A stretch of 64,000 nt of DNA from Cyanophora paradoxa CCMP329 (lineage: Eukaryota; Plantae; Glaucophyta), in assembly GCA_004431415.1 (NCBI GenBank), contig QPMI01000496.1:434001-498000 (forward strand), in the 5' to 3' direction. The translations under genes were made by a program, and so were the position numbers. Shown here one piece after another: positions 31,084 to 62,465 of the stretch (position 1 is the stretch's first letter; each line of letters starts with the position of its first letter). The notes below the pieces were generated by a model. That model was not told where the DNA came from, searched no databases, and worked only from the letters and a program-made list of their open reading frames with translations.

Positions 31084-34000
31084 TTATTGAGTCCGCCCCA
31101 AGTCTGCCAGCGCCTGCCGAACAACCGAAGTCGTCGGGTGCTGTGGCCCCAGGGTCCGCTCGAGCACCGACAGCGCCCCCTGCGAGTTGCAATGATGCCT
31201 CAGTAGGCGCCGATCGCGAATATCGGCGAATGTTTGACTTGCGCACCTCCGTCAGCGCCACCGCCTCGGAGTGTGCCTCCCTCGTCCCCAGCTTCGCGAG
31301 GAGGTCCCCCAGGCACGCCATCGTGTATGCCGTGTCCGGGTGCTCCGCCCCAAGCGCCCGCTCACGCACCCGCAGCGCCTCCTGCGATCACGTGGGGCGC
31401 GATCGATATCGCGGGGGATCGCGATCGATTTATTAATTATGATCATGAAAGCTAACGCCGCGAACTCGAAGCTCGTTGCACCTCGAACATGGGACGCGCC
31501 GCCGCGTAGTCGCCCTGGGAAGTAAGCAGAATCGCAAGGTTCTGCGCCGTCGCTGCAACGCTCGGGTGCTCCGGTCCAAGCGCGTTCCTGCGCAGCCGCA
31601 GCGCCTCCTGCAGAGAAGCGGAGCTGAGCGACGAATCCAACGCGCCGGGCAACTCATATTGGAAGAAGCGTAAGGCGCGCCCCGCACCTCGAGCAACGGC
31701 CGCGCTGCAGCGTAGTCGCCCTGTCCAGACAGCACGCCCGCAAGGTTCTGCATCGCCATTGCAACGTCGAGGTGCTCCGGCCCCAGCGCTTTCTTGTACA
31801 CCGAAAGTGCCTCCTGCGCATGCGAATTCGAAATGCATCGTTGGAATTTCGCAGACACACGGCGGCCTAGGGCGCATGAATATTCGGCACCTCGAACATG
31901 CGTCGCGCTGCAACTTTGTCGCCCTTAGCTTGCAGCAGCACCGCCAGATCTTGCGTTGTTGATGCAACGCTTGGATGCTCCGGCCCCAGCACCTTTCGGT
32001 AGACCCGCAGCGCCTCCTGCGGCGCGCGAGAATCAGAGCTGGAGTTGGAACGTGCCAGAAACGAGGAGATGCTTTAATTTCACCTCATACATCGGCCGCG
32101 CCGCTTCGTAGTCTCCCTGATCGGACAGCACGCCTGCAAGGTTATGCATCGCCATTGCAACGTCGGGGTGCTCCGACCCCAGCGCCTTCCGGTAAATACG
32201 CAGCGCTTCCTGCAATGGCCCGGGGCGGGATCGGAACCGCGGGAGCCGAAGTCGTACCGAGAAGGCAGCCGGTGCCGTTTCGCACCTCCAGCGTGTGTCG
32301 CGCCGCCTCGTAGTCGCCCTGACCCCTCAGGACGCCCGCCAAATTCTGCATCGTTGTCGCGACGTTCGGATGATCCCGTCCCAGCGCTTTCTCACGCAGC
32401 CGCAGCGCCTCCTGCGAGAAATACAATCGAATTCAAAGCCCCACAACAATTGCAAGAGCCCGCGACAAAGTCCGATCCCCGGAGAACATTTAAGCTTCGA
32501 GAAGCACGCTGCACCTCGAACAATGCGCGTGCTGCCTCGTATTCATCCTGGGCCATAAGCAGGCTGGCCAAATCTCCCACCGCCCCTGCGGCCTCCACGT
32601 GCTCCGGCCCCAGCACCTTCTTGTATACGCGCAGCGCCTCCTGCGATTGCGAGGGGCGGGGCTGGATCGGAACCCAGAAGCCGGGCGACGTTACAGCTAA
32701 ACATTGAGACTTACTTCGAGCATTCGCTTCGCTTCGCCGTATTCTCCAAATTCGGTGAGCAGACCGGCAAGGTTCTGTGTTGTCCGTGCCACGTCGGGGT
32801 GGTCCGGCCCCAGCGCCTTCTTGCGCACCCGCAGCGCCTCCTGCAACGCGCACGTGTATACGTACGTACGATCGGGATCAGATTTGGAATGGACGGGTCG
32901 GGCTCAAAACGGGTGCAGCATGCGCACCTCGTACATGGACCGCGCCTCTGCAAAGTTGCCCTGGGCCTTCAGCATAGCTGCCAGATTCTGCGCGGTCGTC
33001 GCGACGTGGGGATGCTCTGGCCCCAGAGCTTTTTTATAGACGCGCAGCGCCTCCTGAACATGTGACGGTCGCGATTAGAAACGTAATTAAATGATAAGAG
33101 GCGAAAGGGTGCCTGGGAAACACGACACGTTTCGCACCTCGTACATTGTCCGTGCCGTCGCAAAGTCACCCTGCTCGGCCAGAAGATTTGCCAGATTCTG
33201 CGTAGTCATCACGACGTCGAGGTGTTCCGGCCCCAGCGCCTTCTTGCGCAGCCGCAGCGCCTCCTGAGGCGGACCCGGGCCGGGTTCAGCAGCTGCCAAA
33301 TCATGGATAAAGTGCGAAAGACACCTCATACATCGGCAGAGCCGCTGCGAATTCGCCTTTGGCCTTCAGCAGAATCGCCAGGTTCTGCGTAGTTTTCGCA
33401 ATCTCAGCGTGCTCCGGCCCCAGCGCCTTCTTGTACACGCGCAGGGCTGCCTGCACGCGGCGACGTTAGATCTCGCGCGCACGCGGAGAATAACGATTCG
33501 CAGCGGACCTGAAGGAACGGGATGCCATCGGCAGAGCGTCCCATCACATGCAGCAGCCAGCCGGCCATGCTCAGAGCGTGGGGGTTCGCGTTGCCGCTCC
33601 CCACCTCGAGCTTAGCAGCACCGCATGCTGGGCTCGCGATCGTGTGCGTTCGCATGGCCAGTCCGACGGTCGACGCGTACGACTCTATATTTTAGGATCC
33701 GAAGAAATAGAGACGCACAGGCGAAAGAGAGCGTTGTCCTTGTCATCGGCAGGGGCGAGCTTAGAGAAAGCAGACCACGAGCCCCAGGAAGTCGTGCCAG
33801 AACAGCGTCCAAGTGAGCTGGCTCGGCCCGCCGGCGGCGTCCACGCCGACGAAGGCCTTCAGCTCGTCCTCTGCCATCCCGTGCCGCGCGCACACGACGG
33901 CAGAGGCGGCGTCCCGCACGAGCGCCGACCCGTGGCGCGAGGCGAGGCGGCGCAGGACGAGGCGGAAGAGGTCGCGCGGGCCGCCCCCGCAGCCAAGGAA

Positions 34001-36945
34001 CGCGCCGATGTCGGCGTCGAGGTTCGCGTGGACGGAGACGTTCGAGAGCTCGTCGAGGAGGACGGTGAGGAAGAGGACGTTGCGGCACGGCTCGGCCCGC
34101 ACGATGCGCTCGAGGCGCTCGTCGGAGAGGGCGCGCCCCTGCTCGCGGAGCACGCCCTCGACCACCTGCCTCCGCCGGGCCTCCGAGAGGGGCGCGATCT
34201 CGCGGTCCACGTGTGCCCTGGCGGTCGCGGCGTCCAGGGTCGGGCCTGCGCTTCCGCATCAACTCTGTGCCATCGCCGCGAGATGGGATGGCCGGCGACG
34301 GCAGCACCGCGCAGGCTGGAGACGAGGATGCGGAGGCGGGGCCCGGAGGCGGGCGGGAGCCACGCGAGGCCGGTGACGGGCGGGTCGCCCCGCAGCTGGT
34401 CCAGCCCGTCCAGGACGAGGACGACGCGGAAGGGCCAGCAGGTGGCGCCGGTTGCGAGGAAGACGCTCAGGCGGGCCGCCAATTCGGCGTCCATGCCGCG
34501 CAGGTCGACAGCCTCGGCCTTGGGCCAGCGGCCGCGGACCTCCTCGCTGATCCGCCTGCGCATGCCCGGCGGCCGTGAACACGAAGTCCGACAAATAAGC
34601 TTAAGGCTAATCAGACAAAATTGGATAGTTCGATGTGGGCGGACGGTATACGTATGGCCATGGCCGCGGGCCAGGCAGCGCGAACCGAGCGATCGAGGCG
34701 AGCAGTGAGCTGCTCTGGGACCCCCCGATGAAGTGCACGATCACGAGGTCGTCGGGGTGCGACTTTGTCCACTCCCACGCCCAGTTGGCGAGGAGGGCTG
34801 CGCACGCGTCGTCGACCCAATTAACCTCGCGAGGGCCGTAATAGACTGCGGACCGCTCTTGCCGCAGCCGCCGTCCCCGTGCAGCACGAAGAGGTCGGGG
34901 CTCGAGGCCGCCGCGTAGGTGCTCAGGGTGTCTATGTCCTGCGGGTTGCGCACGAAGACGCGCCGCCGCGACGCCGCGAACGCCGCGTGCTGCGCCCGCT
35001 CCGCCTCCAGCCACGGCCGCTCCTTCTCCAGCGGGTGCTCCCTTTCCAGCATCTGAGGCGGCCCCTCCCTCAAAACGCAGGCTGATCATGAGACCGGATG
35101 CGGGGGCGCGGGGGCCGCGCACCGCCTTGAGGGCGTCGCGCATGTCGAGGGCGAGCCGCTGGGCGTCCGGGTACTCGGCAACGCGGAGGCCTGCGGCTCG
35201 GATCTCGCCCTTCAGCGCCTCCAGGCGCTGCTCCGCGAAGGGGCCTTCCCCCGATCCGGGCGCGGCGGGGCGCGCGGCCTGCATGAGGCCCGGGCCAGCC
35301 ATGTAGAACAGCGTTTTGTCCCGCATGGACTGGGAGGCCGCCCGAAGTCATCGCGTGAGGACTCGGAGAGGGGGGTGAGGGGCGGGTGAGGAGGAGCTCG
35401 GGGGGCTGGATGGGTTGGAGAGGGGGGTTGGAGGGCCGGGAGATCTAGATGGGTTGGAGAGAAGGGTTGGAGGGCCGGAGAGAGGGGAGAGGGTTGGAGA
35501 GGGGGTTGAAGAGGTTGAAGGGGTTGAAGAGGGGGGTTGGAGAGGGGGCGCGGGGTGGGGGGGTGGGGGGGGGGGGGGGGGCGGGGGAGGGGGGGCAGGA
35601 GGGGCCCGGAAAGGGGCGGGGGCGGGGGGGCGGGGGGCGGAATTCGAGGGGGTAGAGGGGTAGGGGGATTATGTGCGTGGGAGCAAACCTGGAGGCGCGA
35701 GATCGAAGGAGTGGCTCCTCCCGGCCGCACCGCGCCGCCGAGCACGCCCGCGCGGATCTCTGCGCGCGGCCCCCTGGGCTGAGCGAGCCCGGCGGCCGAG
35801 AGCGGATTCCGCCTCACCGATCTCGGTCACGCTGCGGTCCTGCCACTCCTGCACCCATGGGAACTCTTCCCCGGCGCGCCCCAAGTTCCTGCGTGGGCTC
35901 GCGATCGTGTGCGTTCGCATGGCCAGTCCGACGGTCGACGCGTACGACTCTATATTTTAGGATCCGAAGAAATAGAGACGCACAGGCGAAAGAGAGCGTT
36001 GTCCTTGTCATCGGCAGGGGCGTCGGGCCGCAGGTGCCAGCCGTACCGAGCCTGCGTCACGTCGCCGAGTCGTTGCCCAGAATCACTTAGTCAGAATGGG
36101 CACTGCGGCAATTGCCACTTCAGGCTTCATAATAAATTATATACTACCTTGAGCAAGCCGACGAAGTGCGTGCTCCGATCCACCTCCCGCAGGCACAACA
36201 GGGTCACCAGGCCCGCCTGGCACGCCTCCTCGTTGATGCCCCACCTGCGGCCGCGCTCTGAATCAAACCTCAAGCTCGCGATCGGCACAGCAGGCGCGCG
36301 CGCATGCGGGCCTGAGGTCGACGCAGTGGAAGAAAAGCCCGCGCTCCGCGCACATCGCCTTCAGCGTCGGGTTCACGAAGCTGCGAATGGCATCCCTCTC
36401 CGCCTGCATGTCCTCTGCAGCCGCGGTTCGTGATTAGCCTTAGTGTACGTACGCGTACTAGTGGGGGGCGCCGGCTGCGCGGCACGCGTACGCCGCATGC
36501 GCGGGCGGTCCGCGCGCGGGGACGTTAACGTTGTTGATTAATATATTCGGTATATATTCCGCTCGGGCGCGCGGCCGGGCGCACGGAAGGTCGAGGAGAC
36601 GAAGATGCGCACGACGCGCTTCTGCGCCAGCAAAGCGTCGCGGCGCGCAGCCGATGGAGCCACGGCTGCAGCTGGCGCCGCGGCGATCGTGCGCTTGGCT
36701 TCGGCCCCGGTCGCGGGGGCCAGAGAAGCAGTCGGCCGCGCAGCTGGCCCCGCGGCGGCCGCGGCGGCCGGGCCCGCGGCGGACCTCGGGGGGTCCCCGC
36801 GGCCGGATCTTAGGCCTGCAGCTGCCCCGCTTGCATGCGAATTCGGCGGGCGTTCAAATTCGGGGACCAGCACCACTTCCTGAATCTTCGAGACACTCTG
36901 GGGAGCCCCCAGGCCCGCGCTCCCTCGAGAACCGCAGCAGCCCAT
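31084..36945 (-). CDS. DUF4062-NACHT-TPR (nephrocystin-3/NLR-like) protein, multi-exon; possibly damaged between the NTPase and the TPRs
   Basis: MGCCGS start. DUF4062 motifs RIFVSSTF/EDMQAERDAI...VDLR/WGI...RYGW...SVTEIE. Walker A HGDGGCGKS/ALLANW, VHFIGGS; Walker B LVLDGLDQL...WLP; NVLFL. About 12 TPRs of the EALR..KKALGPEHPDVA...QNLA..L..QGDY type. Stop at 31084-31086. Confidence 0.85.
33629..33757 (+). repeat. 129-bp copy of 35894-36022 (an exon end + intron of the same gene)
   Basis: Identical sequence TGGGCTCGCGATC...CGGCAGGGGCG at both sites. Confidence 0.92.
35355..35670 (+). repeat. G-rich low-complexity intronic tract (GGGTTGGAGA-like units and G runs)
   Basis: Seen directly; lies between coding exons of the NACHT-TPR gene. 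Confidence 0.75.
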
Positions 36946-37331
36946 CGGCGAGCAGCTGCAGCTCCTTTGGCACTCCCGCGGCCGGCAAGCAAGTTGAAGC
37001 AACTACGCCGCTGCTGCTGGCACTGCCTGGCAGTCCACTGGGCCAGATGAGACTGGATCTGGGGATTCTAGATCTGGGCAGACATCGACTGGGCTACGCG
37101 CACATGTGCATGCATGATGCATCATGGCATGTGTAGTAGTCATTGTGTACACTGTACATGTCATGATATCGATATACTATGATGATATGCGGGCAGCAGC
37201 CGCTGCCAGGCGCTGACTCACACAGTGTCAGAGTCAGTGAGCGGTGCCACACAGGCCCACACTGCCACCGTGCCAGCGCCGCGCCGCCTGCGCCGGCGCC
37301 GGCCCAGCCTGGCAGCGCCGCCAAATTAATA

Positions 37332-37572: not shown

Positions 37573-39529
37573 TATTGGGCGCCAATGGCCCGCCATGCAG
37601 CGGCCCTGGCCCCTGGCGCATGCGCATGGGCCGGCATGGCAGGCTTTTGGCAGCGGGCTTGGTGAGCCTTGGACCCTTGGTCCGACGGACTCCGAGTCTC
37701 CGAGTCGCCGTCGACTCTCCGAGTCGAGACTCCGACCGTCGGACACGTACGCCGCGTGATCGGACGGTCACAGGCTCACAGCTGCAGGCTAGCGCTCACA
37801 GCCTTGGTGCCAAGTTACACTGCCAACACCGCCACTGTCCGCCAGTGGCACCAGTGCTACCACTGGCCAGTGGGCCAGTAACTTTAGTAACCGGGCCCTA
37901 CCGCAGGCTACCCGGTGTGACCGGGCCGTAACCGGCCGCGGCCGCGGGGGCGCTAGTAACCGCCCGACCGCTCCAGGCCGCGGACCAGGCGGGGTACCCC
38001 CGGTTCTAGTCCCACGAGTAGGATGATACTTGGATCATGAGTCATTCACGAGTCACGACTCGGAGGAGACGCCGAGACGGTCTCTGACGGTCAAATCCGA
38101 TGATTGCCGACTTTCCTTCAGAGGATCGTAATTAACTCATCATTGAGTCATCAACGATCCGGAAGTGTTGCTAGTAACTTGCCATGATTGACTCAGTGAC
38201 CCTTGGCCCTTTTTTTCTTTTTTAGCTTGGGCTGGAAAGAAAAAATCGGACGTCGACGAAACTTCGGTTACCGGCGACTTACCACGGCCGTCGCATTCCG
38301 GTAAGCTGGCGGTATAGGGGGTAGCCTCGCAGGAACGTTCACCCCGACAGCTTCGGCGACAAGTTTGGCAACTACAAGCTCTCTCAGAGTCTTCTCCCAT
38401 CCGATGATCCGCTCCGAGGCTCGCCCCGCGCCGAGCCGGCGCCCTGAAGGCTGGTAGGCTGGCTCAGCCTGGCAGTGATCATCGGATCCCTGCAGAATAC
38501 CGGTAATTTAATTCGAGTATCGAATCACTACTATCGATATCCCTACTGGCATGGGCCTCGGGCTCCCCTCGCGCCGACATTCGTACGTCCACGTATAATG
38601 ACAGCTCATTATGGCATGATAAATTTAAAGGGAACTTCAAGGCTTTTTGCCAGGCTGAAGCTGCAGCCATGCGCACGCCGCTGCGCATGCGCCTGATCGA
38701 TTTGGTACAGGCTCGTGATCCGCCGCTGCGCCTGCATGCAGCTGATTGATTTGGTACAGGCCCTAGGCCTGAGGCTCGTTACGGTGTATACGGACTTACA
38801 CACGCATACGTATGTATACGCGTATACGTTGTAATGCAAGCATATGCATCGCGGGCCGGCGTGCTGCGCCGCCTGCGCGCCCTGGCGCCGGCCTACGTGC
38901 ACGCATACATCATGGCGCCGGCATGGCCATGTGCATGGCCCTTCACTAAAGCTGCTGCCGCTAAGCTGCTAGCCCCAGCGCTAGCTGCACTGCGGCAGCC
39001 TGCAGCTGCATGCGCATGCAATATTAATAAAGGGAATTCGAACTTAGAATTCGAAAGCTGCGCACGCGTACGTTCTACGGTACATGTACAATTGCAAGTG
39101 CTCTGGATAAAGTGAACTTAGCAAAGCGCTGCACGCGCTTCGCAGTGCGCAGCAATACTAGTCTGCGCTGGTACAGGCTCAGGATAAAGGGATCCGGATC
39201 GACGCGCTAGCGTTCGCTAGCCTAACTTAAAAAAGCTTGTCACAATATGAAGGGTTTTTTCCCCCGCAAGTTCCCCGTACGTCACGGTCTTAAGCTTGAA
39301 TATTACCGGTAATATTAATCCGACGTACATTATACGGTATACATACACGTACAGACGGTACAGCCCCGGCCCTTAATTAATTAATCAATACATGCTAGCA
39401 CTCGAAGAAAAAAGGGGTCAATTAAGGGACTCAAGCTAGGGTCAATAATGGCAATTGCAAATTACTTTCGCTCGAGCTCCGTTAAAATTCACCCTTCACC
39501 GCGCGCCCGCGCCGGCCCCGGGCCGCGGC

Positions 39530-39845
39530 TCGGGATTTGCGCTCTCAATGCGTAAATCGAGTTTTGCGCCGACTGAATGCGAGTAAAGAAGACCGTAGCC
39601 GAACGCCAGGCACGAAAGAGCTGAGCGACTCGCTAGCCGCAGAGCGGCGCGAGGCGAGCACGGGATGAGCAGCAGGCGGCAGCGAGCGCCCCGCAAGGGA
39701 CTAGCTGAGCTAGCCGTTGGGCCGAGCCGGCGGGCTTGAAGCCGCCGAGCTCCGGGGGGTACGCTGATTCGGGGTTTCCCTTCACGCCCTGCTTCGCTCG
39801 CGGCCGCTCCAGGCCACGAAGCGACCAGCGGCGAAGCGAAATCGC
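39530..39845 (+). repeat. Repeat A1 (second copy at 49894-50206)
   Basis: TCGGGATTTGCGCTCTCAATG...GCGAAGCGAAATCGC at both sites. Confidence 0.93.
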
Positions 39846-40465
39846 CACAGCCAGCACAGCAATCACTCCTAAACAGCCCTGTCGGACCGGCGGCCGCACA
39901 TCTCGGCCGTCCCTCCTATTGCACGGAGCCGACCCAACTCTGCAGCACCATGGCTAGCTGCAGTGGAGCGTGATCCCGCGGCAGCAACTGTGAAGCAGTT
40001 CTGCCTCGTTGGCTGGCCGGAGCAAACCCTGTTCCCAGCGATCCTCCCGGAATCGGCCCCGGGCCCCGATTCACGCTTGAATCTGGTGCCTTACTGCCGT
40101 GCCGGTACGTGGATTCACGTCCGGGCCCGCCCGCCACGCTCGCATCCAGCGCGCGCTGGCTATCCCGGGGGCCCACCGTCAGTCCGCGGCCGCCGGCTTG
40201 CCTATACACTCTATAAGCGTGTATTGAGACCCGCCGCGCGATTCCTCCGGATCCCTGACCATTCCCTGCGCGCATGATCCGGGAGCTCCTCGGCGCTCGA
40301 ACCGGACGCCGCCGCCGCGCCACGCCGGCGGAGCTCGCGCAGGAACGCCCCGGCCTGCTGGCGCTCGCGCTGCAGGCCCACCGCACCGTCGGGGCTTGGA
40401 TCGTGCCTTACGCGTGATCCACCGACGGACGGTGCCCGGCCGCCCGCGCGGCTCGGGGTGGCGAC

Positions 40466-42645
40466 GGAGTACGGTTCTCGCTGGCGCCTCGCTGCGAGTC
40501 GGCCCGCTGGCGCCTCGCTGCGGGCCCCGTCCTCGGAGTTCCGGGACCGCTGGCGCGGCGCGCCGCGGTCCCGGCCTGCCCCGCAGGCCCCGCCGCGCCC
40601 GCGGCCGGCGAGCTCCACCCCGGAGTACGGCCTCGCTGGCGGAACCGCTGCGAGATGGCCCGCTGGCGCGTCGCGCTGCGGGCCCGTCCTCGGAGTTCCG
40701 GGACCGCTGGCGCGGCGCGCCGCGGTCCCGGCCTGCCCCGCAGGCCCCGGCCGCGCCCGCGGCCGGCGAGCTCCACCCCGGAGTACGGCCTCGCTGGCGG
40801 AACCGCTGCGAGATGGCCCGCTGGCGCGTCGCGCTGCGGGCCCCGTCCTCGGAGTTCCGGGGACCGCTGGCGCGGCGCGCCGCGGTCCCGGCCTGCCCCG
40901 CAGGCCCCGGCCGCGCCCGCGGCCGGCGAGCTCCACCCCGGAGTACGGCCTCGCTGGCGGAACCGCTGCGAGATGGCCCGCTAGCGCGTCGCGCTGCGGG
41001 CCCCGTCCTCGGAGTTCCGGGGACCGCTGGCGCGGCGCGCCGCGGCCCCGGCCTGCCCCGCAGGCCCCGGCCGCGCCCGCGGCCGGCGAGCTCCACCCCG
41101 GAGTACGGCCTCGCTGGCGGAACCGCTGCGAGATGGCCCGCTGGCGCGTCGCGCTGCGGGCCCCGTGCTCGGAGTTCCGGGGACCGCTGGCGCGGCGCGC
41201 CGCGGTCCCGGCCTGCCCCGCAGGCCCCGGCCGCGCCCACGGCCGGCGAGCTCCACCCCGGAGTACGGCCTCGCTGGCGGAACCGCTGCGAGATGGCCCG
41301 CTGGCGCGTCGCGCTGCGGGCCCCGTGCTCGGAGCTCCGGGGACCGCTGGCGCGGCGCGCCGCGGTCCCGCCCTGCCCCGCAGGCCCCGGCCGCGCCCGC
41401 GGCCGGCGAGCTCCTCCCCGGAGTACGGCCTCGCTGGCGGAACCGCTGCGAGATGGCCCGCTGGCGCGTCGCGCTGCGGGCCCCGTGCTCGGAGTTCCGG
41501 GACCGCTGGCGCGGCGCGCCGCGGTCCCGGCCTGCCCCGCAGGCCCCGGCCGCGCCCGCGGCCGGCGAGCTCCACCCCGGAGTACGGCCTCGCTGGCGGA
41601 ACCGCTGCGAGATGGCCCGCTGGCGCGTCGCGCTGCGGGCCCCGTGCTCGGAGTTCCGGGGACCGCTGGCGCGGCGCGCCGCGGTCCCGGCCTGCCCCGC
41701 AGGCCCCGGCCGCGCCCGCGGCCGGCGAGCTCCACCCCGGAGTACGGCCTCGCTGGCGGAACCGCTGCGAGATGGCCCGCTGGCGCGTCGCGCTGCGGGC
41801 CCCGTCCTCGGAGTTCCGGGGACCGCTGGCGCGGCGCGCCGCGGCCCCGGCCTGCCCCGCAGGCCCCGGCCGCGCCCGCGGCCGGCGAGCTCCACCCCGG
41901 AGTACGGCCTCGCTGGCGGAACCGCTGCGAGATGGCCCGCTGGCGCGTCGCGCTGCGGGCCCCGTGCTCGGAGTTCCGGGGACCGCTGGCGCGGCGCGCC
42001 GCGGTCCCGGCCTGCCCCGCAGGCCCGGCCGCGCCCACGGCCGGCGAGCTCCACCCCGGAGTACGGCCTCGCTGGCGGAACCGCTGCGAGATGGCCCGCT
42101 GCGCGTCGCGCTGCGGGCCCCGTGCTCGGAGCTCCGGGGACCGCTGGCGCGGCGCGCCGCGGTCCCGCCCTGCCCCGCAGGCCCCGGCCGCGCCCGCGGC
42201 CGGCGAGCTCCTCCCCGGAGTACGGCCTCGCTGGCGGAACCGCTGCGAGATGGCCCGCTGGCGCGTCGCGCTGCGGGCCCCGTGCTCGGAGTTCCGGGGA
42301 CCGCTGGCGCGGCGCGCCGCGGTCCCGGCCTGCCCCGCAGGCCCGGCCGCGCCCGCGGCCGGCGAGCTCCACCCCGGAGTACGGCCTCGCTGGCGGAACC
42401 GCTGCGAGATGGCCCGCTGGCGCGTCGCGCTGCGGGCCCCGTCCTCGGAGTTCCGGGGACCGCTGGCGCGGCGCGCCGCGGCCCCGGCCTGCCCGCAGGC
42501 CCCCGGCCGCGCCCGCGGCCGGCGAGCTCCACCCGGAGTACGGCCTCGCTGGCGGAACCGCTGCGAGATGGCCCGCTGGCGCTCGCCGCTGCGGGCCCCG
42601 TCCTCGGATCTAGTTCCGGGGAGTCGGGGACCGCTGGCGCGTCGC
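40466..42645. repeat. GC-rich tandem array, about 160-bp unit, 13-14 copies, highly homogeneous
   Basis: AACCGCTGCGAGATGG recurs at 40643, 40801, 40961, 41121, 41281, 41441, 41600, 41760, 41920, 42079, 42238, 42397 and 42556. Confidence 0.95.
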
Positions 42646-43359
42646 TCTACAGGCCCCGCGGCCGCACTCCGTCGGAGTGCCCGCTGCGCATGCAGCCTCG
42701 CGATCGATCGCGATCGCAGAGTGTTTTTGTTTTTTGTTTGTCTGTGGTCGATTTTAGTCAATTCAATGGTTGACTCGACCTAAAAACAAAACAAAAACAA
42801 AAAACAACAAACGTCCCGGCCGGACCGGCGGACCCGCGAGGGCGCGATTCCGCGCGAACCCGCGGGCCGCGGGCCCGCGGCGCCGGCGGCCGCGGCCGCG
42901 CGCGCGCGCGCGCCGCGCCGGCGGCCCGGCGCGCGGTCTCCGAGGCTCGCTAGTAGTCGCTACCGGTAGGCTGCGGCGGTAGCTACCTGGCTGGTGCTTC
43001 CGGGCGCTTCCGCGCTCAGAATCCGCTGCCGCAGGCCTATCGCTAGGCCCGCAGCGCGCATCAGCAGCGCCGCGGCGCATCGCCGCATGCCATGCCCGGC
43101 TGCACGTAAGCTAGTCCCCAGTACTACTAGTAGTACTGCAGCTCCCGAGCGCGTGCGAGTCAGCCCGGCCTCAGCCTCCGCCGCGGCGCCCGACACCGCA
43201 GCCGCTGAGCTGCAGCTGCAACTGCCAGGCTGGCGCTTCCGCTGCCGCAGTGCTGTCGCTGGCGCGTGGCGCTGCGGACTACAGCCCTCGCTGGCGCTCC
43301 AGATCTCGCTGCGAGTCGGCCCGCTGGCGACCTTCCGCGCATCCGCGCCGCGCCGTCGC

Positions 43360-46300
43360 GCGCCCCACGCCGCCGCTCGACCCGCCGCCGCCGCATACTC
43401 TGCTTGCGCAGGACGGGCCGGCCGCTGGCTCGACCGCAGCGCTCTCCGGCGGGAGCCTGGGCTCCACCTCCACGGCTCCGCCCCGAGGCCCGAAAGCGAC
43501 CTCGCGCGGCCCCGCGCCGCCGCTCGACCGCCACCGCCGCCTGACCTGCTTGCGCAGGGCAGGCCGGCCGCGGGCTCGCCTGCAGCGCCCTCCGGCTGGA
43601 GCCCCTTGGGCTCCACCTCCGCCCCGAGGTCCGTAGCGACCTCGCGCGGCCCCGCGCCGCCGCTTTACCCGCCGCCGCCGCATAACCTGCTTGCGCAGGG
43701 CAGGCCGGCCGCTGGCTCGCATGCTGCGCTCCCCGGCTGGAGCCCAAGGCTCCACCTCCGCCCCGAGGTCTGCAGCGACCTCGCGCGGCCCGGCAACGCC
43801 GCTCGGCTCGCCGCCTCCGCCTGACCTGCTGGCGCAGGGCGGGCCGGCCGCTGGTTCGCAGGCAGCGCTCTCCGGCTGGAGTCCAGGGCGCCACCTCCGC
43901 CCCGAGGTCCGTCACGGCCTCGCGCGGCCCCGCACCGCCGCTCGACCCGCCGCCGCCGCATGACCTGCTTGCGCAGGGCAGGCCGGCCGCTGGCTCGCAT
44001 ACCGCGGTCCCCGGCTGGAGCCCAGGGCTCCACCTCCACCCCCAGGCCGTCACGGCCTCGCGCGGCCCCGCGCCGCCGCTCGACCCGCCGCCGCCGCAGA
44101 ACCTGCTTGCGCAGGGCGGGCCGGCCGCTGGCTCGCATGCAGCGCTCCCCGGCTGGAGCCCAGGGCGCCACCTCCGCCCCGAGGTCCGTCACGGCCTCGC
44201 GCAGCCCCGCGCTGCCGCTCGACCCGCCGCCGCCGCAGAACCTGCTTGCGCAGGGCGGGCCGGCCGCTGGCTCGCATGCAGCGCTCCCCGGCTGGAGCCC
44301 AGGGCGCCACCTCCGCCCCGAGGTCCGTCACGGCCTCGCGCAGCCCCGCGCTGCCGCTCGACCCGCCGCCGCCGCAGAACCTGCTTGCGCAGGGCGGGCC
44401 GGCCGCTGGCTCGCATGCAGCGCTCCCCGGCTGGAGCCCAAGGCTCCACCTCCACCCCGAGGCCGTCACGGCCTCGCGCGGCCCCGCGCCGCCGCTCGAC
44501 CCGCCGCCGCCGCAGAACCTGCTTGCGCAGGGCGGGCCGGCCGCTGGCTCGCAGGCAGCGCTCCCCGGCTGGAGCCCAGGGCTCCACCTTCAACCCGAGG
44601 CCTGTCAAGGCCTCGCGCGGCCCCGCGCTGCCGCTCGACCCGTCGCCGCCGCATAACCTGCTGGCGCGGGGCGGGCCGGCCGCTGGCTCGCAGGCAGCAC
44701 TCCCCGGCTCGAGCCCAGGGCTCCACCTCCGCCCCGAGGGCGGGCCGGCCGCTTCCTCACCTGCGGCACTCCCCGGCTGGAGCCCAGGGCTCCACCTCCA
44801 CCCCGAGGTCCGTCACGGCCTCGCGCGGCCCGACGCTGCCGATAAGCTCGCCACAGCCGCCTGACTCAGTGAATCACTGGCGCAGGGCGGGCCGGCCGCT
44901 GAAGCACCCGCCACATTCCCCTGCTGGAGCTCAAGGCTTCACCGCCTCCCGAGGTCTGCAGCGGCCTCGCGCGGCCCCGCGCCGCCACTCGCCCGCCGCC
45001 CACGACCGCCGCATAACCTGCTGGCGCAGGGCGGGCCGACCGCTGGCTCACCTGCCGCGCTCCCCGGCTGGAGCCCAGGGCTCCATCTCCGCCCCGAGGT
45101 CCGTCACGGCCTCACGTGGCCCCGCGCTACCTCGACCCGCCGCCACCGCATAACCTGCTCGCGCAGGGCGGGCCGGCCGCTGGCTCACCTGCCGCGCCCC
45201 CCGGCTGGAGCCCAGGGCTCCACCTCCGCCCGAGGTCCGTCCCGGCCTCACGCGGCCCGCGCTGCCGCTCGACCCGCCGCCGCCGCATGACCTGCTGGCG
45301 CGGGGCGGGCCGGCCGCTGGCTCGCAGGCAGCGCGCCCCGGCTGGAGCCCAGGGATCCACCCCCGCCCCGAGGTCCGTCACGGCCTCGCGCGGCCCCGCG
45401 CTGCCGCTCGACCCGCCGCCGCCGCATAACCTGCTTGCGCAGGGCGGGCCGGCCGCTGGCTCGACCGCGGCGCTCTCCGGCTGGAGCCCAGGGCTCCACC
45501 TCCGCCCCGAGGTCCGTCACGGCCTCGCGCGGCCCCGCGCCGCCGCTCGACCCGCCGCCGCCGCAGAACCTGCTTGCGCAGGGCGGGCCGGCCGCTGGCT
45601 CGCATGCCGCGCTCCCCGGCTGGAGCCCAGGGCGCCACCTCCGCCCCGAGGTCCGTCACGGCCTCGCGCAGCCCCGCGCTGCCGCTCGACCCGCCGCCGC
45701 CGCGTACCCTGCTTGCGCAGGGCGGGCCGGCCGCTTGCTCGCAAGCAGCGCTCCCCGGCTGGAGCCCAGGGCTCCACCTCCACCCCGAGGTCCGTCACGG
45801 CTTCGCTCGGCCCCGCGCTGCCGCTCGACCCGCCGCCGCCGCTTATCCTGCTTGCGCAGGGCGGGCCGGCCGCTGGCTCGCATGCAGCGCTCCCCGGCTG
45901 GAGCCCAGGGCTCCACCTCCGCCCCGAGGTCCGTCACAACTTCGCGCGGCCCGCGCCGCCGCTCGACCCGCCGCCGCCGCATAACCTGCTGGCGCGGGCG
46001 GGCCGACCGCTGGCTCGCAGGGAGCGCTCCCTGGCTCGAGCCCAGGGCGCCACCTCCGCCCCGAGGCCTGTCAAAGCCTCGCGCGGCCCCGCGCTGCCGC
46101 TCGACCCGCCGCCGCCGCATAACCTGCCTGCGCAGGGCAGGCCGCTGGCTCGCATGCAGCGCCCCCTGGCTGGAGCCCAGGACTCCGCCTTCGCCCCGAG
46201 GTCCGTCACGGCTTCGCGCGGCCCCACGCTGCCGCTCGACTCGCCGCCGCCGCATACCCTGCCTGCGCAGGGCGGGCCGGCCGCTGGCTCGCATGCAGCG

Positions 46301-48915
46301 CTCCCCAGCTGGAGCCCAGGGCCCCACCTCCGCCCCGAGGTCAGTCACGGCCTCGAGCGGCCCCGCGCTGCTGCTCGACCCGCCGCCGCCGCAGAACCTG
46401 CTTGCGCAGGGCGGGCCGGCCGCTGGCTCGCATGCAGCGCTCCCCGGCTGGAGTCCAGGGCGCCACCTCCGCCCCGAGGTCCGTCACGGCCTCGCGCAGC
46501 CCCGCGCTGCCGCTCGACCCGCCGCCGCCGCATAACCTGCTTGCGCAGGGCAGGCCGGCCGTGGGCTCGCATGCAGCGCTCCCCGGCTGGACCCCAGGGC
46601 TCCACCGCTGCCCCGAGGCCCTTCACGGCCTCGCGCGGCCCGCGCTGCAGCTCGGCGTACCGCCACTGCCTGACCTGCTGGCGCAGGGCGGGCCGGCCGT
46701 TGGCTCGCAATGCAGCGCTCCCCGGCTGGAGCTCAAGGCTCCACCGCCGCCCGAGGTCCGTCACGGCTTCGCGCGGCCCCGCGCTGCCGCTCGACCGGCC
46801 GCTGCCGCATAGTCTGCTTGCGCAGGGCGGGCCGGCCGCTGGCTCGCATGTAGCGCTCCCCGGCTGGAGCCCAGGGCTCCACCTTCAACCCGAGGCCTGT
46901 CAAGGCCTCGCGCGGCCCGCGCTACCGCTCGACCCGCCGCCGCCGCATAACCTGCCTGCGCAGGGCCGGCCGCGGGCTCGCATGCAGCGCTCCCCGACTG
47001 GAGCCCAGGGCTCCGCCTCCGCCCCGAGGTCCGTCACGGCTTCGCGCGGCCCCGCGCTATCGCTCGACTCGCCGCCGCCGCATACCCTGCCTGCGCAGGG
47101 CGGGCCGGCCGCTGGCTCGCATGCAGCGCTCCCCAGCTAGAACCCAGGGCCCCACCTCCGCCCCGAGGTCCGTTCACGGCCTCGCGCGGCCCCGCGCTGC
47201 AGCTCGGCGTACCGCCACTGCCTGACCGGCTTGCGCAGGGCGGGCCGGCCGCTGGCTCGTCCGCCGCGCTCTCCGGCTGGAGCCCAAGGCTCCACCTCCA
47301 CCCCGAGGTCCGTTCACGGCCTCGCACGGCCCCACGCCACCACCCGGCTTGCCGCCGCCGCCTGACCTGCGGGTGCAGGGCGGGCCGGCCGCGGGCCCGC
47401 CCACCGCGCTCTCCTGCTGGAGCTCAAGGCTCCACCACCTCCCCGAGGTCTTCAGCGACCTCGCGCGGCCTGGCGCCACCGTCCGGCTCACTGCTTCCGC
47501 CGGACCGGCTGGCACAGGGCGGGCCGGCCCTTAGCCCGTCCGCGGCCGTCGGACGCTTCCTGGCTGGAGCTCGAAGCTCCGCCACCGCCCCAAGGGCGGG
47601 CCGGCCGGTGGACCGCGCGCAGCGCCTCCTGCGGTAGCTAAAAGCTCCGCCTCCGCCCGAAGGTCCGTAGCGGCCCCGCGCGGTCCCGCGCCGCCGCTCT
47701 ACCCACTACCGCCGTCAGACCTACTCGCGAAGGGCAGGCCGGTCGCTGGCTCGCCAGCAGCGCTCTCCTGCTGGAGCTCAAGCCTCCACCACCGCCCCGA
47801 GGTCTGCAGCGACCTCGCACGGCCCCGCGCCGCCGCTCGGCTCTCCGCCGCCGCCTCGCCTGCTGGCGCAGGGCGGGCCAGCCTCTGGCTCGCCCGCGTC
47901 GCCCCCCTGCTGGAGCTCAAGGCTCCTTCGCGACCCCGAGGTCCGTCACGGCCTCGCGCGGCCCCGCGCCGCCGCTCGACCCACCGCCGCCGCTTATCCT
48001 GCTTGCGCAGGGCGGGCCGGCCCCTGGCTCGCCCGCAAGGCCCCCTGGCTAAAACTCCAGGCCCCACCATTACACCGAGGTCTACTGCGACCTCGCGGGG
48101 CCCCGCGCCGCCGCTCGGCTCGCCGCCGCCGCCTGACCTGCTTGCGCAGGGCGGGCCGGCTGCTGGCTCGCCCGCAACGCCTCCTACTGGAGCTCAAAGC
48201 TCCGCCGCCGCCCAAGGTCCGTGGCGACCTCGCGTGGCCCCATGCCACAGCTCGGCTCGCCACCGCCGCCTGACCCGCGTACGCAAGGCGGGCCGGCCTC
48301 TGGCATGCCCGCGGCGCTCCCCGGCTGGAGCTCGAGGCTCCACCACCTCCCAAGGTCTGAAGCGACCTCGCGCGGCCCACACTACCGCTCGGCCCGCTGC
48401 CATCGCTCCCCCAGCTTGCGTAGGGCGGGCCGGCCTCTAGCTCGCCGCGACGCTTCCTGGCTGGAGCTCAAGGCTCCACCCCCGGCCCGAAGTCTGCAGC
48501 GACCTCTCGCGTTCCCGCGCCGCCACTGAGCTCGCCGCCGCCGCATAACCTGCTTGCGAAGGGCGGGCCGGCCTCTGGCTCCCCAGCAGCGCTCTCCTGC
48601 TGGAGCTCATGACCCCACCACCGCCCCGAGGTCCGCAACGACCTCGCGCGGCCCCAAACCGCCGCCGCCTCGCCTGCTGGCGCAGGGTGGGCTGACCGCT
48701 GGCTCGCCCGCGGTGCTGTGCCACGGGCGCTCCAGGCCCTGAGGCCCCGCGACCGCTCCCGCGGTCTTATGCGGCCCCCACGTCCGCGCGGCGCGCTTCC
48801 GCCGCCTACCCTGCTTGCACAGGGCAGGACGGTGGTGGGCTCGCTTTCGGTGCTCACCGGCTGGGATGGTTTTAGATTCCGCCGCGGCCCCGAGGTCCGT
48901 AACGGCCTCGCGCGA
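43360..48915. repeat. GC-rich tandem array, about 139-bp unit, about 40 copies, more diverged at the edges
   Basis: GAGGTCCGTCAC recurs at 139-bp spacing, e.g. 44181 and 44320; 45370, 45509, 45648, 45787 and 45926. Confidence 0.93.
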
Positions 48916-49341
48916 CTTCACGCCGACGCGCAGTGCGACCGCCTTGCCCGCCCTCCACCCGTAGCGCGCCCCTGGCCCGCACCGCCCAGCATGACTTGTC
49001 GGCGGCGGGGATCTGGCGGCGCCACTATCCAGCGCCGCCCCGGTTCGTCGACTGTCCCATAGGGGTACGGCGAGAACCCCCCAGCCTTCTGTGCCGGCTC
49101 GTTACCTCGGGCGTTTTGGCCCGCCCCGGCCCCATGTTGTTTGTCCGAATTCACGCTCTCTGCCCGTTCCTCCTACAGCGCAGTGCGCTGGGGGAGGGAG
49201 GCCTAGCGTCTGGGACACGTGGGGTGGCAGGGGAAGGAGGAAGGAGAGGGGGGGAATGGGGGAGGGCGAAACAACCTTCGCCCTCTTGCTCACTTTGTTC
49301 CTATGTATGCTATTCTGGCTGGCTGTGACCTGACTCTTGTT

Positions 49342-50206
49342 TGGTAGGGGGTACTGCATTCGTGCTGCGTTCGCTACGCTCACCCCCGCGGCCTCCGGCG
49401 GCGGTACCCGGCTTCGGATCCCCGAACCCGGAAGAAACCGCGTACCCCTCCCCGGGGTACGCCGTTCGCCCCAACCGGCCCCACAAGGCGCGGCCCGAGG
49501 CCGAACGCGTACCCCGGAGAGGGGTACGGCGTCAGAGCGGCCCCGATCAAGTGTACCCCCGAGCGGGGTACCCCGATCGGTCCCGCGACGGCCCGAGCGG
49601 AGTACCCCGAGCGGGTACACCGTCTCGGCCCGCAACGGCCCTCCCCGGGTACAGGCGCCTAGCGCGCTTACCCGGAGAGTTCTTGTTCCGGAACTCGCAA
49701 GGGCGAGGCCGGAATGGCATACGGCGATCCGCCCTGGTCGATCGCCAACGTATTATGATACGTGGTTCCCGGGAAAGCAGCCTTGAGCTGCCGTACCTCA
49801 GGGCCCAACCGATGCGCTATCCGTGCATCTAGCTAAGTAGTGTCAGGCGTAAGATAGCTAGGTCTTCTGCATTCGAATGAAGCGAGGCGTAAATCGGGAT
49901 TTGCGCTCTCAATGCGTAAATCGAGTTTTGCGCCGACTGAATGCGAGTAAAGAAGACCGTAGCCGAACGCCAGGCACGAAAGAGCTGAGCGACTCGCTAG
50001 CCGCAGAGCGGCGCGAGGCGAGCACGGGATGAGCAGCAGGCGGCAGCGAGCGCCCGCAAGGGACTAGCTGAGCTAGCCGTTGGGCCGAGCCGGCGGGCTT
50101 GAAGCCGCCGAGCTCCGGGGGTACGCTGATTCGGGTTTCCCTTCACGCCCTGCTTCGCTCGCGGCCGCTCCAGGCCACGAAGCGACCAGCGGCGAAGCGA
50201 AATCGC
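49342..50206 (+). repeat. Repeats B1+A2 (the complete LTR-like unit / circle-junction mimic)
   Basis: B1 ends GAGGCGTAAA at 49893; A2 starts TCGGGATT at 49894. Confidence 0.93.
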
Positions 50207-50862
50207 TCCCGCCCACCTCCCGCGATTTGTCCTCCGGGCGCCGAACCTCGCTACCCAGCGAGCCCCGACGCCGCGAAAGTTCGCGCAAGGGCAATGCATA
50301 CGGCGACCAGCACCAGCGCTCGCCGAGGGTATTATAATACGTGGTTCCTTGTCGTCTCCTGCGCACGCGGTTCCGGATGGTACTCCCGCTCGGTGCCGGC
50401 CACCAGCGCGGACGTGGTCGTGCACAGCTGATCCGTGGTAATTTACAATGGTTCCGTCGAAGATTCGGGCACGAACCGCGCAGACTCTGTGTATCGGTCG
50501 TCATTCGTGTTTGCACTCGCGTCCGCTGGACCCGCTTGTGCCGGGCCGGGGCCCAGCGCGCGCCCCAAAAAACAGTCGCGCGGCTTCGTTGCGAATCTCG
50601 AGTGTTTTCCCACTGGGTTTTTACCCTGTTTTTTCCGCTGGACCCGCGGGTGCCGAGCTGGGGTCCAGCGCGTATGGCTGTTACGCGGTTTTTCCCCGCT
50701 GTAACTTGTTGGTTTCGAGTCTGCCGCCCCGGCGCGGGGGGAGACTTCGCGCATATGCATGATCCGGAGTTCTGTCGGTTTTCCGATGAGCCTTGGTTGT
50801 CGTATTTTTGTACGACTCCTTGGTCTCATGGTCGTCTGCGGACGATGGGCACGCTACGCGTG

Positions 50863-51416
50863 TGGTAGGGGGTACTGCATTCGTGCTGCGTTCGCTACGC
50901 TCACCCCGCGGCCTCCGGCGGCGGTACCCGGCTTCGGATCCCCGAACCCGGAAGAAACCGCGTACCCCTCCCCGGGGTACGCCGTTCGCCCCAACCGGCC
51001 CCACAAGGCGCGGCCCGAGGCCGAACGCGTACCCGGAGAGGGGTACGGCGTCAGAGCGGCCCCGATCAAGTGTACCCCCGAGCGGGGTACCCCGATCGGT
51101 CCCGCGACGGCCCGAGCGGAGTACCCCGAGCGGGGTACACCGTCTCGGCCCGCAACGGCCCTCCCCGGGGTACAGGCGCCTAGCGCGCTTACCCCGGAGA
51201 GTTCTTGTTCCGGAACTCGCAAGGGCGAGGCCGGAATGGCATACGGCGATCCGCCCTGGTCGATCGCCAACGTATTATGATACGTGGTTCCCGGGAAAGC
51301 AGCCTTGAGCTGCCGTACCTCAGGGCCCAACCGATGCGCTATCCCGTGCATCTAGCTAAGTAGTGTCAGGCGTAAGATAGCTAGGTCTTCTGCATTCGAA
51401 TGAAGCGAGGCGTAAA
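50863..51416 (+). repeat. Repeat B2 (copy of 49342-49893)
   Basis: TGGTAGGGGGTACTGCATTCG...GAAGCGAGGCGTAAA at both sites. Confidence 0.93.
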
Positions 51417-51801
51417 ATTCACTGTGCATCTGCATGCATATGCGGCATGCATACATGTACACTAGGCGCCGGCCTGTACATGTATAGGTATACGCGTAGG
51501 CGCCGGCGCCGGCGCCGTGCTAGCTATAGCTCGAGCCTTACAGTCCTGCGGATAAGCCTGATCTAAATCTAGGTCTAGATCTAGATCTCTGCAGCTCAGC
51601 GACGCAGAAAGCAGACGTCCCGAGTCGGTCTCAGCAGACGCGCGGGCGTACTTGAGCTTCAGCGATCAAAGCAAAGGCTCGACGTCGACCGCCTCGGCGC
51701 GGAAAATCGCTCTAGATCCACAGCTCGATCTCCACGTACGAGTACACCGCGCCCCCGCGCCGGCAAACAGCGGAGCTCGAGCTCGCGACTCAAGAATATC
51801 A

Positions 51802-53099
51802 ATGGCGTCCCGCACCCCTGGCGTCGTTCTCGCCCTCTTCGAGCTCGTCATCGTCGTCTTGACCGCCGTCGCCATCGGCTCCGCCGCCTGGTGCGCATGC
51901 GCCCCGCGCGCGCTTCGCGGCGCCCCGGGCAGGGCCGGCGCCGGCGCGGCTCCTCAATTGCAAGCTTTCCGACCATGATTTCGACTTCCGTGCTTGCACG
52001 TGCACAGGACGACATCTTCGATGGCCGATCCCAATCTCGGCGTGTCAACAGCCAGCGAGGTCGGGCTCCTGCGCTCCAAGACCTCGGCGACGCCGATGGG
52101 CTCCTCCACCTCCGCCGAAGCCGTGCGCGCGCGCTTGTACGCGTGTGCGCGTGGGCACGCGCGCGCCCGCTGACCCTTGACTCCGCGCGCAGCCGACCGA
52201 CGACCTGTGCGCCTCGCTCGCGAGCGGGACGGACGCGCGCAGCAAGTGCGACCGGGCCGTCGCCTCGGGCAAGGTGGGCCCTTGCAATTGCAACTCAGAG
52301 CGGCCTCGGATTAGCGGCCTCGAATTCGCGGAAGGTTCTCTAGATCTTAGCTTGCACCCGATTTTGACGATTGTGCGCGCAGGCCGCCTTCGCGATGCAG
52401 CTGATCGCGATCGTCGTGAACGGCTTCGCGGGACTCGCCGCCTGCGTGCTCGCCGGCGGCTCGGCGTCTGCCCGCGGCCTCTGGATCTGCATCACGTCCT
52501 CCGTCTGCGCCTCCGCCCTCCTCATGATCATCGGCACCGTCGTCTTCGGCGCGGTCCGTTCGTTCTTCTCTCAGCGAAACGTAACCCAACTACTTTAATT
52601 TACTTAAGACTTCAATTCGTCGTCTTCGCAGGGGATGCACGCGCCCCTGAAGGAGCTGTACGGCGCGGCCCCCGCCGCCCTCGGCTGGTCCTTTGGATCC
52701 GGAGTCGACGTCGCGGCCGTCGCCGTCAACTTCCTCGCCACGTGCGCCCATTCGAATCTATCTAAATAGAAGCTTAGCTTAAGCTTCTATTTCATGAGCT
52801 GCCCGGTACTCGAACTTGAATTGATTTCGCGCAGCTTCGCGTGCTGGGCCCTGTGGATGGCGGCGACGCAGCGGCACGTCGCCCGGTCGACATCGGGCCT
52901 CGGGATGGCCGCCCCCGTCCCCGTCCCCGCCCTCACCAACATCAAGGTGCATGCGCGAGAGCTCTGAATCTGAATTCGAATTTCTGAAGCTGACTTCAAT
53001 TTCTCTCGCCAGGTCGACTTCACGAAATCTTTCCAGGAGGGGGCCCTCCGCCCGCCCGCGAGCCCCCAGACCGCCCCCACGACCAATTGCAAGCCGTGA
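51802..53099 (+). CDS. Small four-TM claudin/PMP22-like membrane protein, multi-exon
   Basis: Exons MASRTPGVVLALFELVIVVLTAVAIGSAAW/...EVGLLR.../..LC........KC..AVASGK/AAFAMQLIAIVV...LLMIIGTVVFGA/...LGWSFG...AVNFLAT/FACWALW.../VDFTKSF...NCKP*. W...GL..C..C loop plus four hydrophobic segments. Confidence 0.6.
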
Positions 53100-53699
53100 G
53101 CGCTCAATTTTAATTATTGCGTGCTCGAATTCAACTTCGAATTCTGACGCTCCCATGTCCCGCGCGCAGAGGCGAGCTCACTTTTTGAAGACTACAACGA
53201 TCGCGGCCGCCAGGCTGCGTCTTCGGTCGCTCCCACTTAGGCATCAAAATGCGACATTCGATTTTTTACTTTAGCGCGCGCTGCTGTCGCAGTGTGCACG
53301 CATCAATGAACATGTATAGATTTTTGTAGCCTTTTGTACAGGTTATTTACAGGCGCGTGAAATCGCACGAGCGCGACTTGAGCTTCGAATAAAGCAAAGA
53401 ATTCGGATGCAAATTAAAGCGGACGTGGGAGAGGGGTGCCGGAGCGATCGCAGGATAGGGGCGCGACGCTAGCAATATCGATATCAATGCCGTTGTACTC
53501 TCTTACCGTTGTACTGCCTACAAGTGATCTCAATCGAAAGGATAAGCATGCCATGCGCCATGATGCATATGCATGCCATGGCCATGATATCGATGATCGA
53601 CACGGATCGATCGACTCAGTCGGTATGGCAACTTTTTCGAATTCGCTCAAGCAAGACAGAGAAAGCCATGGCCAGACAGACTAGACTATAGACAGACAA

Positions 53700-56862: not shown

Positions 56863-57061
56863 GCTCGCTGGGTGCGATGAAGGACTCCCCCCACGTTCCC
56901 CTCCCCCCCCCCCCCCCCCCCCCCCGGGGGGGGGCGCCGGGCAGCGCAGCGGCGCATTAATATTGTGCAATCAGTGACTGCGGCATGATCGGCGACAGCG
57001 CTCGCCTGGCGCCAAGTGCCGACACCCATCAGAAGAAGAAGGCCGAGGGTTGACAAGATCC

Positions 57062-62405: not shown

Positions 62406-62465
62406 ATTGAGCAATTCGAAGCATAGCTGATTCCAATAATTACACGAGGGACGTTCGAATTCGAG

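What the first reader, a model, noticed from the sequence alone, without database searches (positions are those of the whole stretch)
39483..51422. 11.9-kb non-coding element with TOC1-like split direct repeats carrying two satellites
Seen: A1(316)-internal-B1(552)A2(313)-unique(656)-B2(554), near-identical copies, no credible ORF, and about 7.7 kb of tandem repeats inside. Established: A1...B1A2B2 is the hallmark of PAT/Ngaro tyrosine-recombinase retrotransposons; Chlamydomonas TOC1 is non-autonomous with a unique spacer before B2 and an internal tandem array. Oddity: TAAAATTCAC occurs at 39483-39492 and 51413-51422, like a TSD offset 37 bp from A1, which YR elements should not make. Alternative reading: a head-to-tail pair of long and short elements sharing ends, inserted by another mechanism.
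Basis: partly seen in the sequence, partly recalled or inferred. Interest (0 to 1): 0.7.

Follow-up and report, generated by a model that had tools for sequence, protein, structure and literature searches.

The report
Non-coding TOC1-like element with recombinase-like site
This is an 11.9-kb multi-copy mobile element with split terminal repeats and no recognisable protein domain in its unique parts, likely copied through RNA and pasted by a borrowed tyrosine recombinase, whose internal end-to-end junction carries a doubled inverted motif predicted to be that enzyme's cutting site.

Summary
Observation confirmed. The element is 39530-51416: A1(316)-internal-B1(552)A2(313)-spacer(656)-B2(554), with 7.7 kb of 160-bp and 139-bp satellites and no credible Pfam hit in 90 unique-region frames. 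Short-read contigs confirm both host junctions as single-copy. They give roughly 35 A and 41 B copies, and B ends at one fixed base. This copy's own alleles occur at about 2:1:1 (A:internal:spacer) in run X1, as a split-direct-repeat unit predicts. New: the B|A junction reads GCGTAAA-6 bp-TTTGCGC, repeated 27 bp later, and both element ends fall at the left edge of the first 6-bp spacer. That is tyrosine-recombinase site geometry. A sister variant keeps the arms and changes the sequence between them. The 10-bp duplication is not chance (100 of 200,000 shuffles): 4 nt are the element's own end and 6 nt are host. The 37-nt offset holds a 19/20 copy of DNA 329 bp to the right, so it is likely repair filler. 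Best reading: a non-autonomous TOC1-like retroelement, here inserted by a 6-bp staggered cut with the left end mended by end-joining. No autonomous partner, empty site or circle was found.

The parts
39483..39492 (+). Left copy of the 10-nt duplication: TAAA (host, resembling the element's end arm) plus the 6-nt ATTCAC
   Evidence: single-copy contig covers it
39493..39529 (+). 37-nt single-copy piece, 92% GC; likely repair filler (20 nt match 51745-51764 at 19/20; its end folds back on itself)
39530..39845 (+). A1, left split repeat; begins at the 6-bp spacer of the half-regenerated site and carries a full second site at 39550-39569
   Evidence: about 25-35 copies by contig depth
39846..40465 (+). 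Internal 5' unique region; about 7-9 copies in two subfamilies; 39825-39854 and 40158-40197 are shared with a sister family
40466..42645 (+). 160-bp satellite, 13 full copies and 1 partial, 83% GC
42646..43355 (+). Linker with degenerate pieces of the 160-bp unit in both orientations
   Evidence: scores 50 and 62 against shuffle maxima 41 and 39
43356..48864 (+). 139-bp satellite, about 39 copies, decaying towards its right end
48865..49341 (+). Internal 3' unique region; its joint to B is seen in contigs
   Evidence: loose end at 50863
49342..49893 (+). B1; folds as RNA far better than shuffles (z -4.9)
49887..49933 (+). B1|A2 junction: two tandem GCGTAAA-N6-TTTGCGC sites 27 bp apart; predicted recombinase core plus accessory site
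49894..50206 (+). A2
50207..50862 (+). Spacer Y; about 15 copies in two subfamilies; holds a diverged piece of B at about 50293-50348
   Evidence: score 51; 0 of 500 shuffles reach it
50863..51416 (+). B2, right split repeat; the shared contig ends exactly at 51416; about 41 copies
51417..51422 (+). Right copy of the 6-nt host duplication ATTCAC
51745..51764 (+). Host DNA that is the likely template of the filler

Best explanation
The element is a multi-copy, non-coding split-direct-repeat unit (A1-internal-B1A2-spacer-B2) that is likely a non-autonomous tyrosine-recombinase retrotransposon, predicted to be transcribed, reverse-transcribed and circularised by an unseen partner so that the internal B|A copy rebuilds the joined ends. 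The recombinase would bind the inverted GCGTAAA/TTTGCGC arms at that junction and cut with a 6-bp stagger; the second site 27 bp away would act as an accessory site. At this insertion the target resembled the left arm. The right end would have been joined cleanly, and the left end filled in and mended by host end-joining with 37 nt of filler partly copied from nearby, leaving ATTCAC duplicated. Shown: the anatomy, copy numbers, fixed ends, junction symmetry, duplication and filler match. Inferred: RNA intermediate, circle, enzyme and repair route. The satellites are likely passenger DNA that expanded inside the element.
For: (1) The arrangement matches PAT/Ngaro/VIPER split repeats (passages of PMC4157794, PMC8547959 and PMC6681497). 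(2) A1 and A2 share every substitution, while the majority A contig differs from them at 10 sites plus a gap in 308 bp. (3) This copy's alleles in X1: A 5.2x, internal 3.0-3.3x, spacer 2.9x; in X7: A 4.9x, internal 2.5x. (4) Ends are fixed: the shared B contig stops at 51416, and a second right junction in X15 starts at the same base with no poly(A). A second left junction meets the same A start, and a sister contig begins at the equivalent base. (5) An inverted 7-bp arm pair (6/7) with a 6-8 bp spacer starts at only 1.2-1.6% of positions. The doubled form is the only one in 56.5 kb. The sister variant keeps both arms and changes spacer and linker. TnpI has this layout: inverted motifs, 4-bp spacer, cuts staggered by 6 bp, adjacent accessory motifs (PMC2847244 passages). 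(6) The host part of the duplication is 6 nt. The filler's 19/20 match is the only one in the 52 kb outside the element; 3 of 2,000 shuffles match as well within 1 kb.
Against: No RT, RNase H or YR domain was found in any frame scanned (1-25,400 only as ATG ORFs of 150 aa or more). No relatives were found in metagenome or viral contigs. The two ends share no trinucleotide with each other, unlike the DIRS model (PMC7192593 passage). Family-wide depths do not fit one uniform unit: A 34.5, internal 9.2, spacer 15.5, B 41-46 in X1. X11 shows no contig with this copy's A allele, and the allele ratio rests on one position. The second right junction shows no target right arm, and its partner left flank is unknown. 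Two left flanks both end in GCGGC rather than an arm-like sequence, though this has a 5-12% chance among 10-25 flanks. The symmetry, duplication and filler tests were chosen after seeing the sequence. Contig depth is a rough copy measure.
Confidence: 0.68

Rival explanations
1. Same TOC1-like YR retroelement, but a clean conservative insertion after the 37 nt: the 37 nt is original host DNA and the 10-nt duplication is coincidence.
For: It needs no aberrant repair, and the element's bases are exactly accounted for at both ends. The host is rich in short GC palindromes. A second left flank also ends in GCGGC.
Against: It needs two coincidences: the duplication (5 in 10,000) and the 19/20 match to nearby right-flank DNA (1.5 in 1,000).
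Confidence: 0.12
2. A non-autonomous Penelope-like or other target-primed element: 10-bp TSD, 4-nt priming microhomology at the 3' end, and a 30-40 bp tail.
For: PLEs form partial tandems, often carry a 30-40 bp tail at one end, can hold tandem repeats and have non-autonomous head-to-tail forms such as MRC1 (PMC8557442 passages). The duplication abuts the 3' end exactly.
Against: A 5' ends are fixed and B shows no 5'-truncation gradient (depth 3767 at its start, 3348 at its end). The 37 nt is single-copy next to A, not a family tail. The spacer is not the 3' part of the internal region. No Rfam ribozyme hit. It does not explain the doubled inverted site.
Confidence: 0.1
3. Two non-autonomous YR DNA transposons (Crypton-like) sharing ends, one long (A-internal-B) and one short (A-spacer-B); a circle of one recombined into the end of the other.
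For: It gives the same single-copy structure and also predicts an att-like B|A junction. Spacer copies exceed internal copies (15 versus 9), and a further A-other-B-end contig stands at about 10x.
Against: A1 and A2 carry the same minority allele, and the minority internal and spacer alleles occur 1:1; random pairing would not give this. B (41-46x) exceeds the roughly 25 expected from lone units.
Confidence: 0.08
4. The assembly has fused or expanded separate repeats.
For: Homopolymer indels show long-read error; the arrays and the B1|A2 joint were not bridged by displayed contigs.
Against: Both host junctions and four internal joints are in independent short-read contigs. The satellite copies are individually diverged.
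Confidence: 0.02

Closest known systems
TOC1 of Chlamydomonas reinhardtii (non-autonomous version of TOC3, PAT group of YR retrotransposons)
   Same: Non-coding and split direct repeats. PMC5613634 (passages) gives TOC1 as the non-autonomous form of YR-coding TOC3. Its unique spacer before B2, internal tandem array and lack of TSD are recalled; the original papers were not held.
   Different: About twice as long (TOC1 5.7 kb, recalled), with two unrelated satellites (160 versus 139 alignment no better than shuffles), a longer spacer holding a relic of B, a doubled inverted junction site, and a 6/10-nt duplication with filler here. No sequence comparison with TOC1 was possible.
Ngaro of Cafeteria burkhardae
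   Same: A1--B1A2B2, 10-25 copies per strain, solo AB repeats, and a GC-rich protist host that also carries integrated virophage-like DNA (PMC8547959 passages).
   Different: Those encode Gag, RT-RH and YR in about 6 kb; this one has no such domains and has a spacer between A2 and B2.
VIPER/SIRE of Trypanosoma cruzi
   Same: Split repeats plus a short A2-spacer-B2 derivative (PMC6681497 passages), which may match the surplus spacer copies here.
   Different: VIPER is coding; SIRE's middle is about 30 bp.
TnpI/IRS of Tn4430 (for site geometry only)
   Same: Inverted core motifs, 4-bp spacer, 6-bp stagger and adjacent extra motifs.
   Different: A bacterial resolvase site with 14-bp arms and directly repeated accessory motifs; here the arms are 7-8 bp and the second pair is inverted. 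No binding was shown.

Membership tests
PAT/TOC or Ngaro YR retrotransposons | Split direct repeats A1...B1A2...B2 with near-identical copies | tested here: met
PAT/TOC or Ngaro YR retrotransposons | Dispersed multi-copy family with fixed ends | tested here: met
   (contig depth; 2 left and 2 right junctions seen)
PAT/TOC or Ngaro YR retrotransposons | A, internal, spacer and B travel as one unit | tested here: inconclusive
   Own-allele ratio about 2:1:1 in X1, 2:1 in X7, A allele absent in X11; family-wide depths uneven
PAT/TOC or Ngaro YR retrotransposons | Gag, RT-RH and YR in the element (autonomous form) | tested here: not met
   0 of 90 frames; expected for a non-autonomous form
PAT/TOC or Ngaro YR retrotransposons | Autonomous partner sharing A and B; MT domain and YR/RT phylogeny separating PAT from Ngaro | not testable with these tools
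   No genome held; no hits in public contigs
PAT/TOC or Ngaro YR retrotransposons | Short core (trinucleotide) shared by both ends and the junction, no true TSD (stated for DIRS in PMC7192593; for PAT/Ngaro recalled) | tested here: not met
   Left end C|T, junction A|T, right end A|A: no shared core at the element ends; a 6-nt host duplication is present
PAT/TOC or Ngaro YR retrotransposons | Near full-length RNA and circular DNA intermediate | not testable with these tools
   Only contigs of a run guessed to be RNA were available
Penelope-like elements (Chlamys/Naiad) | [quoted passage not shown] | tested here: not met
   Fixed A start and flat depth across B
Penelope-like elements (Chlamys/Naiad) | 30-40 bp tail at one end | tested here: inconclusive
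   A 37-nt piece is present but single-copy and matches nearby host DNA
Penelope-like elements (Chlamys/Naiad) | GIY-YIG plus RT partner | not testable with these tools
Crypton-like YR DNA transposons | Short (4-6 bp) direct repeats matching the target, no long repeats (PMC13465315 passages) | tested here: not met
   TAAA microhomology is present, but so are 313-554 bp split repeats

The most novel reading that the evidence does not exclude
A split-direct-repeat retrotransposon family whose circle junction is a bacterial-style core-plus-accessory tyrosine-recombinase site. It integrates without spacer homology: a 6-bp staggered cut, one recombinase-joined end and one host-repaired end. This would define the long-assumed but biochemically untested DNA substrate of PAT/Ngaro recombinases, and show that they can leave 6-bp duplications with templated filler while moving 12-kb satellite cargo.
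Probability: 0.25. Interest if true: 0.72.

Novelty: new variant of a known kind. Interest (0 to 1): 0.46.

Why it matters
The architecture is known, so the element alone is a modest find. Its value is mechanistic. As of PMC7192593 (2020; passage) the specificity of the DIRS-1 recombinase had not been tested. This junction names a concrete 47-bp candidate site, cut positions and a conserved-arm prediction that can be checked across copies and in vitro. It also shows a route by which satellites are carried to new loci. One search of the held library listed no paper on such a site in these elements among its 20 rows of 91; the key older papers and reviews were not held, so it may be in print.

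Tried and rejected
Exact end or junction motifs gave 0 hits in metagenome contigs and viral contigs. Rfam: none at gathering score, one chance hit at E 0.067, none. No hammerhead core or AATAAA in A, B or the spacer. Pfam found no RT or YR in 42 + 90 + 96 + 114 frames. One homologue search on a host exon, meant to place the lineage, found nothing; the host lineage is undetermined. No RNA holder on record was listed. Run X15, guessed to be RNA, covers 39776-40460 and part of B but not the middle of A; contigs cannot show a start, strand or level, so this is not used as evidence. No empty allele appeared in the three DNA runs laid on the left end (3 of 14 holders); their flank contigs are identical, so they are probably one strain. 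The junction as a single-stranded DNA hairpin is weak (z -1.9 and -0.7), as is A as RNA (z -1.3). The shuffle control is circular, because the pattern came from the sequence, and is not counted. The shared GCGGC in two left flanks was rejected as a target motif. Earlier scan notes: none. The TOC1 and kangaroo originals were not held. No supplements were read.

Full report
Observation. Self-comparison gives A1 39530-39845 / A2 49894-50206 and B1 49342-49893 / B2 50863-51416, differing only by one-base homopolymer indels. Reads carry an extra C at four such runs in B2, so these are probably long-read errors. Two satellites fill 7,689 of 11,887 bp; they are unrelated to each other by alignment. 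None of 90 frames in the unique parts reaches a Pfam cut-off, and Rfam finds nothing credible. The element sits between a TPR-repeat gene on the left and an apparent intron-rich gene starting near 51802 (read from the sequence), in a GC-rich eukaryote of undetermined lineage.

It is a real multi-copy family. No genome was held, but 14 DNA runs of one organism hold the region. On the left, a single-copy contig runs unchanged from 38700 through the 10-mer and the 37 nt into A1 in 3 of 3 DNA runs laid. On the right, a single-copy contig runs from 51387 into the flank in the 1 DNA run laid. In X1, depth relative to the flank is A 34.5, internal 9.2, spacer 15.5 and B 41-46. The three exits from A (internal, spacer, and a third route that reaches the last 20 nt of B) sum to 34.8. 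Depth of contigs is only a rough copy measure. The shared B contig stops exactly at 51416, and a second right junction begins at the same base without poly(A). A second left junction meets the same A start. The B1|A2 joint itself was not among the displayed rows.

One unit or two neighbours? A1 and A2 have no substitutions between them, while the majority A differs at about 3%. This copy's alleles stand at A 5.2, internal 3.0-3.3 and spacer 2.9 in X1, and at A 4.9 and internal 2.5 in X7; X11 shows no contig with the A allele. About three copies of a subfamily with two A, one internal and one spacer is what a split-repeat unit predicts. The majority subfamily has twice as many spacers as internals (12 versus 6). 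So solo A-spacer-B copies, like SIRE or the solo AB of Cafeteria, or copies with another interior, also exist.

The junction. Across B1|A2 the sequence is GCGTAAA TCGGGA TTTGCGC TCTCAAT GCGTAAA TCGAGT TTTGCGC: an inverted 7-bp arm pair around 6 bp, twice. B ends after the first arm and A starts at the first base of the 6-bp spacer, where a tyrosine recombinase cuts the top strand (established knowledge). TnpI has inverted motifs, a 4-bp spacer, cuts staggered by 6 bp and adjacent accessory motifs; the 8-bp-arm/4-bp reading also fits here. A single such symmetry starts at 1.2-1.6% of positions, and the doubled form occurs once in 56.5 kb. A sister contig begins at the equivalent base and keeps both arms while changing the spacer (TCGGGG) and the linker (AATTAA). 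The single-strand hairpin is weak, so duplex protein binding is the better reading. This is inference from sequence; no protein was found.

The duplication. It is unlikely by chance. Four of its ten bases at the right are the element's own end, so the host duplication is ATTCAC, 6 nt, the length of the spacer. The host bases before the left copy (CGTTAAA) resemble the element's arm. The 37 nt is not a family tail, because it is single-copy beside A. It begins by repeating the end of the duplication, contains a 19/20 match to 51745-51764 (unique outside the element; 3 of 2,000 shuffles), and ends in a fold-back. This is the pattern of templated end-joining inserts (recalled). The simplest account is a 6-bp staggered cut at an arm-like target, a recombinase-made right joint, and a left end filled in and joined by host repair. 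No other copy in X1 appears to share even the first base after B with this one, so this insertion may be atypical. A clean insertion with two coincidences, and a target-primed event with a 10-bp TSD, remain possible; only the empty site decides.

Comparison. It works like TOC1, the non-autonomous form of YR-coding TOC3 (finer details of TOC1 recalled). It cannot be filed under PAT or Ngaro: the partner is unseen, and the shared short core at both ends described for DIRS is absent. Penelope-like elements have 30-40 bp tails and tandem forms but also frequent 5' truncation, which is not seen here. All papers were seen as search listings and found passages only; none was read whole and no supplements were read.

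Verdict. A real, recently active-looking, non-autonomous split-repeat element of a known architecture, with an unusually clear candidate recombinase site and an informative imperfect insertion. Confidence is 0.68 in the full model and about 0.8 that it is a YR retroelement by either insertion route; interest 0.46.

Noticed in passing
window 13626-25456: AT-rich (33-46% GC) 11.8-kb insert with 245-bp terminal inverted repeats, a protein-primed-type family B DNA polymerase (19683-23681, with an endonuclease VII-like hit below cut-off) and an A32 packaging ATPase (15191-15793): an integrated Polinton-like virus or virophage-like element.
   Followed up: partly
window about 26600-29200: DUF6570 hit (27752-28066, minus strand) and C2H2 zinc fingers (28786-29094) in lower-GC DNA; possibly a broken Helitron-like element (association recalled).
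   Followed up: no
window 31076-36960: Minus-strand gene with about ten TPR exons of NPHP3 type, one repeat per exon; an exact 129-bp duplication at 33629-33757 / 35894-36022 lies inside it.
   Followed up: no
window 52983-53469 and 57059-57590: Diverged (69%) direct duplication of about 500 bp around a gene end.
   Followed up: no
window 58000-64000 and B1/B2: GGGTAC/GTACCC is strongly enriched (8-14 per 2 kb, against 0-3 elsewhere) both in B and in the last 6 kb of the window, with no alignment between them.
   Followed up: no
window about 51500-51590: Short multi-copy motifs in the right flank (depth up to about 13x, several loose ends), perhaps the end of another repeat.
   Followed up: no
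window 39825-39854 and 40158-40197: Blocks shared with a sister family that has a different A interior and internal region (joints 39579-39825 and 39857-40158); a candidate for the autonomous partner.
   Followed up: partly
window 51409-51416 and run X15 record 10: The second right junction begins with the exact reverse complement of the 8 nt preceding B's last four bases; unexplained.
   Followed up: no
window 30462-30700: Three copies of a 53-nt repeat next to a short TA run.
   Followed up: no
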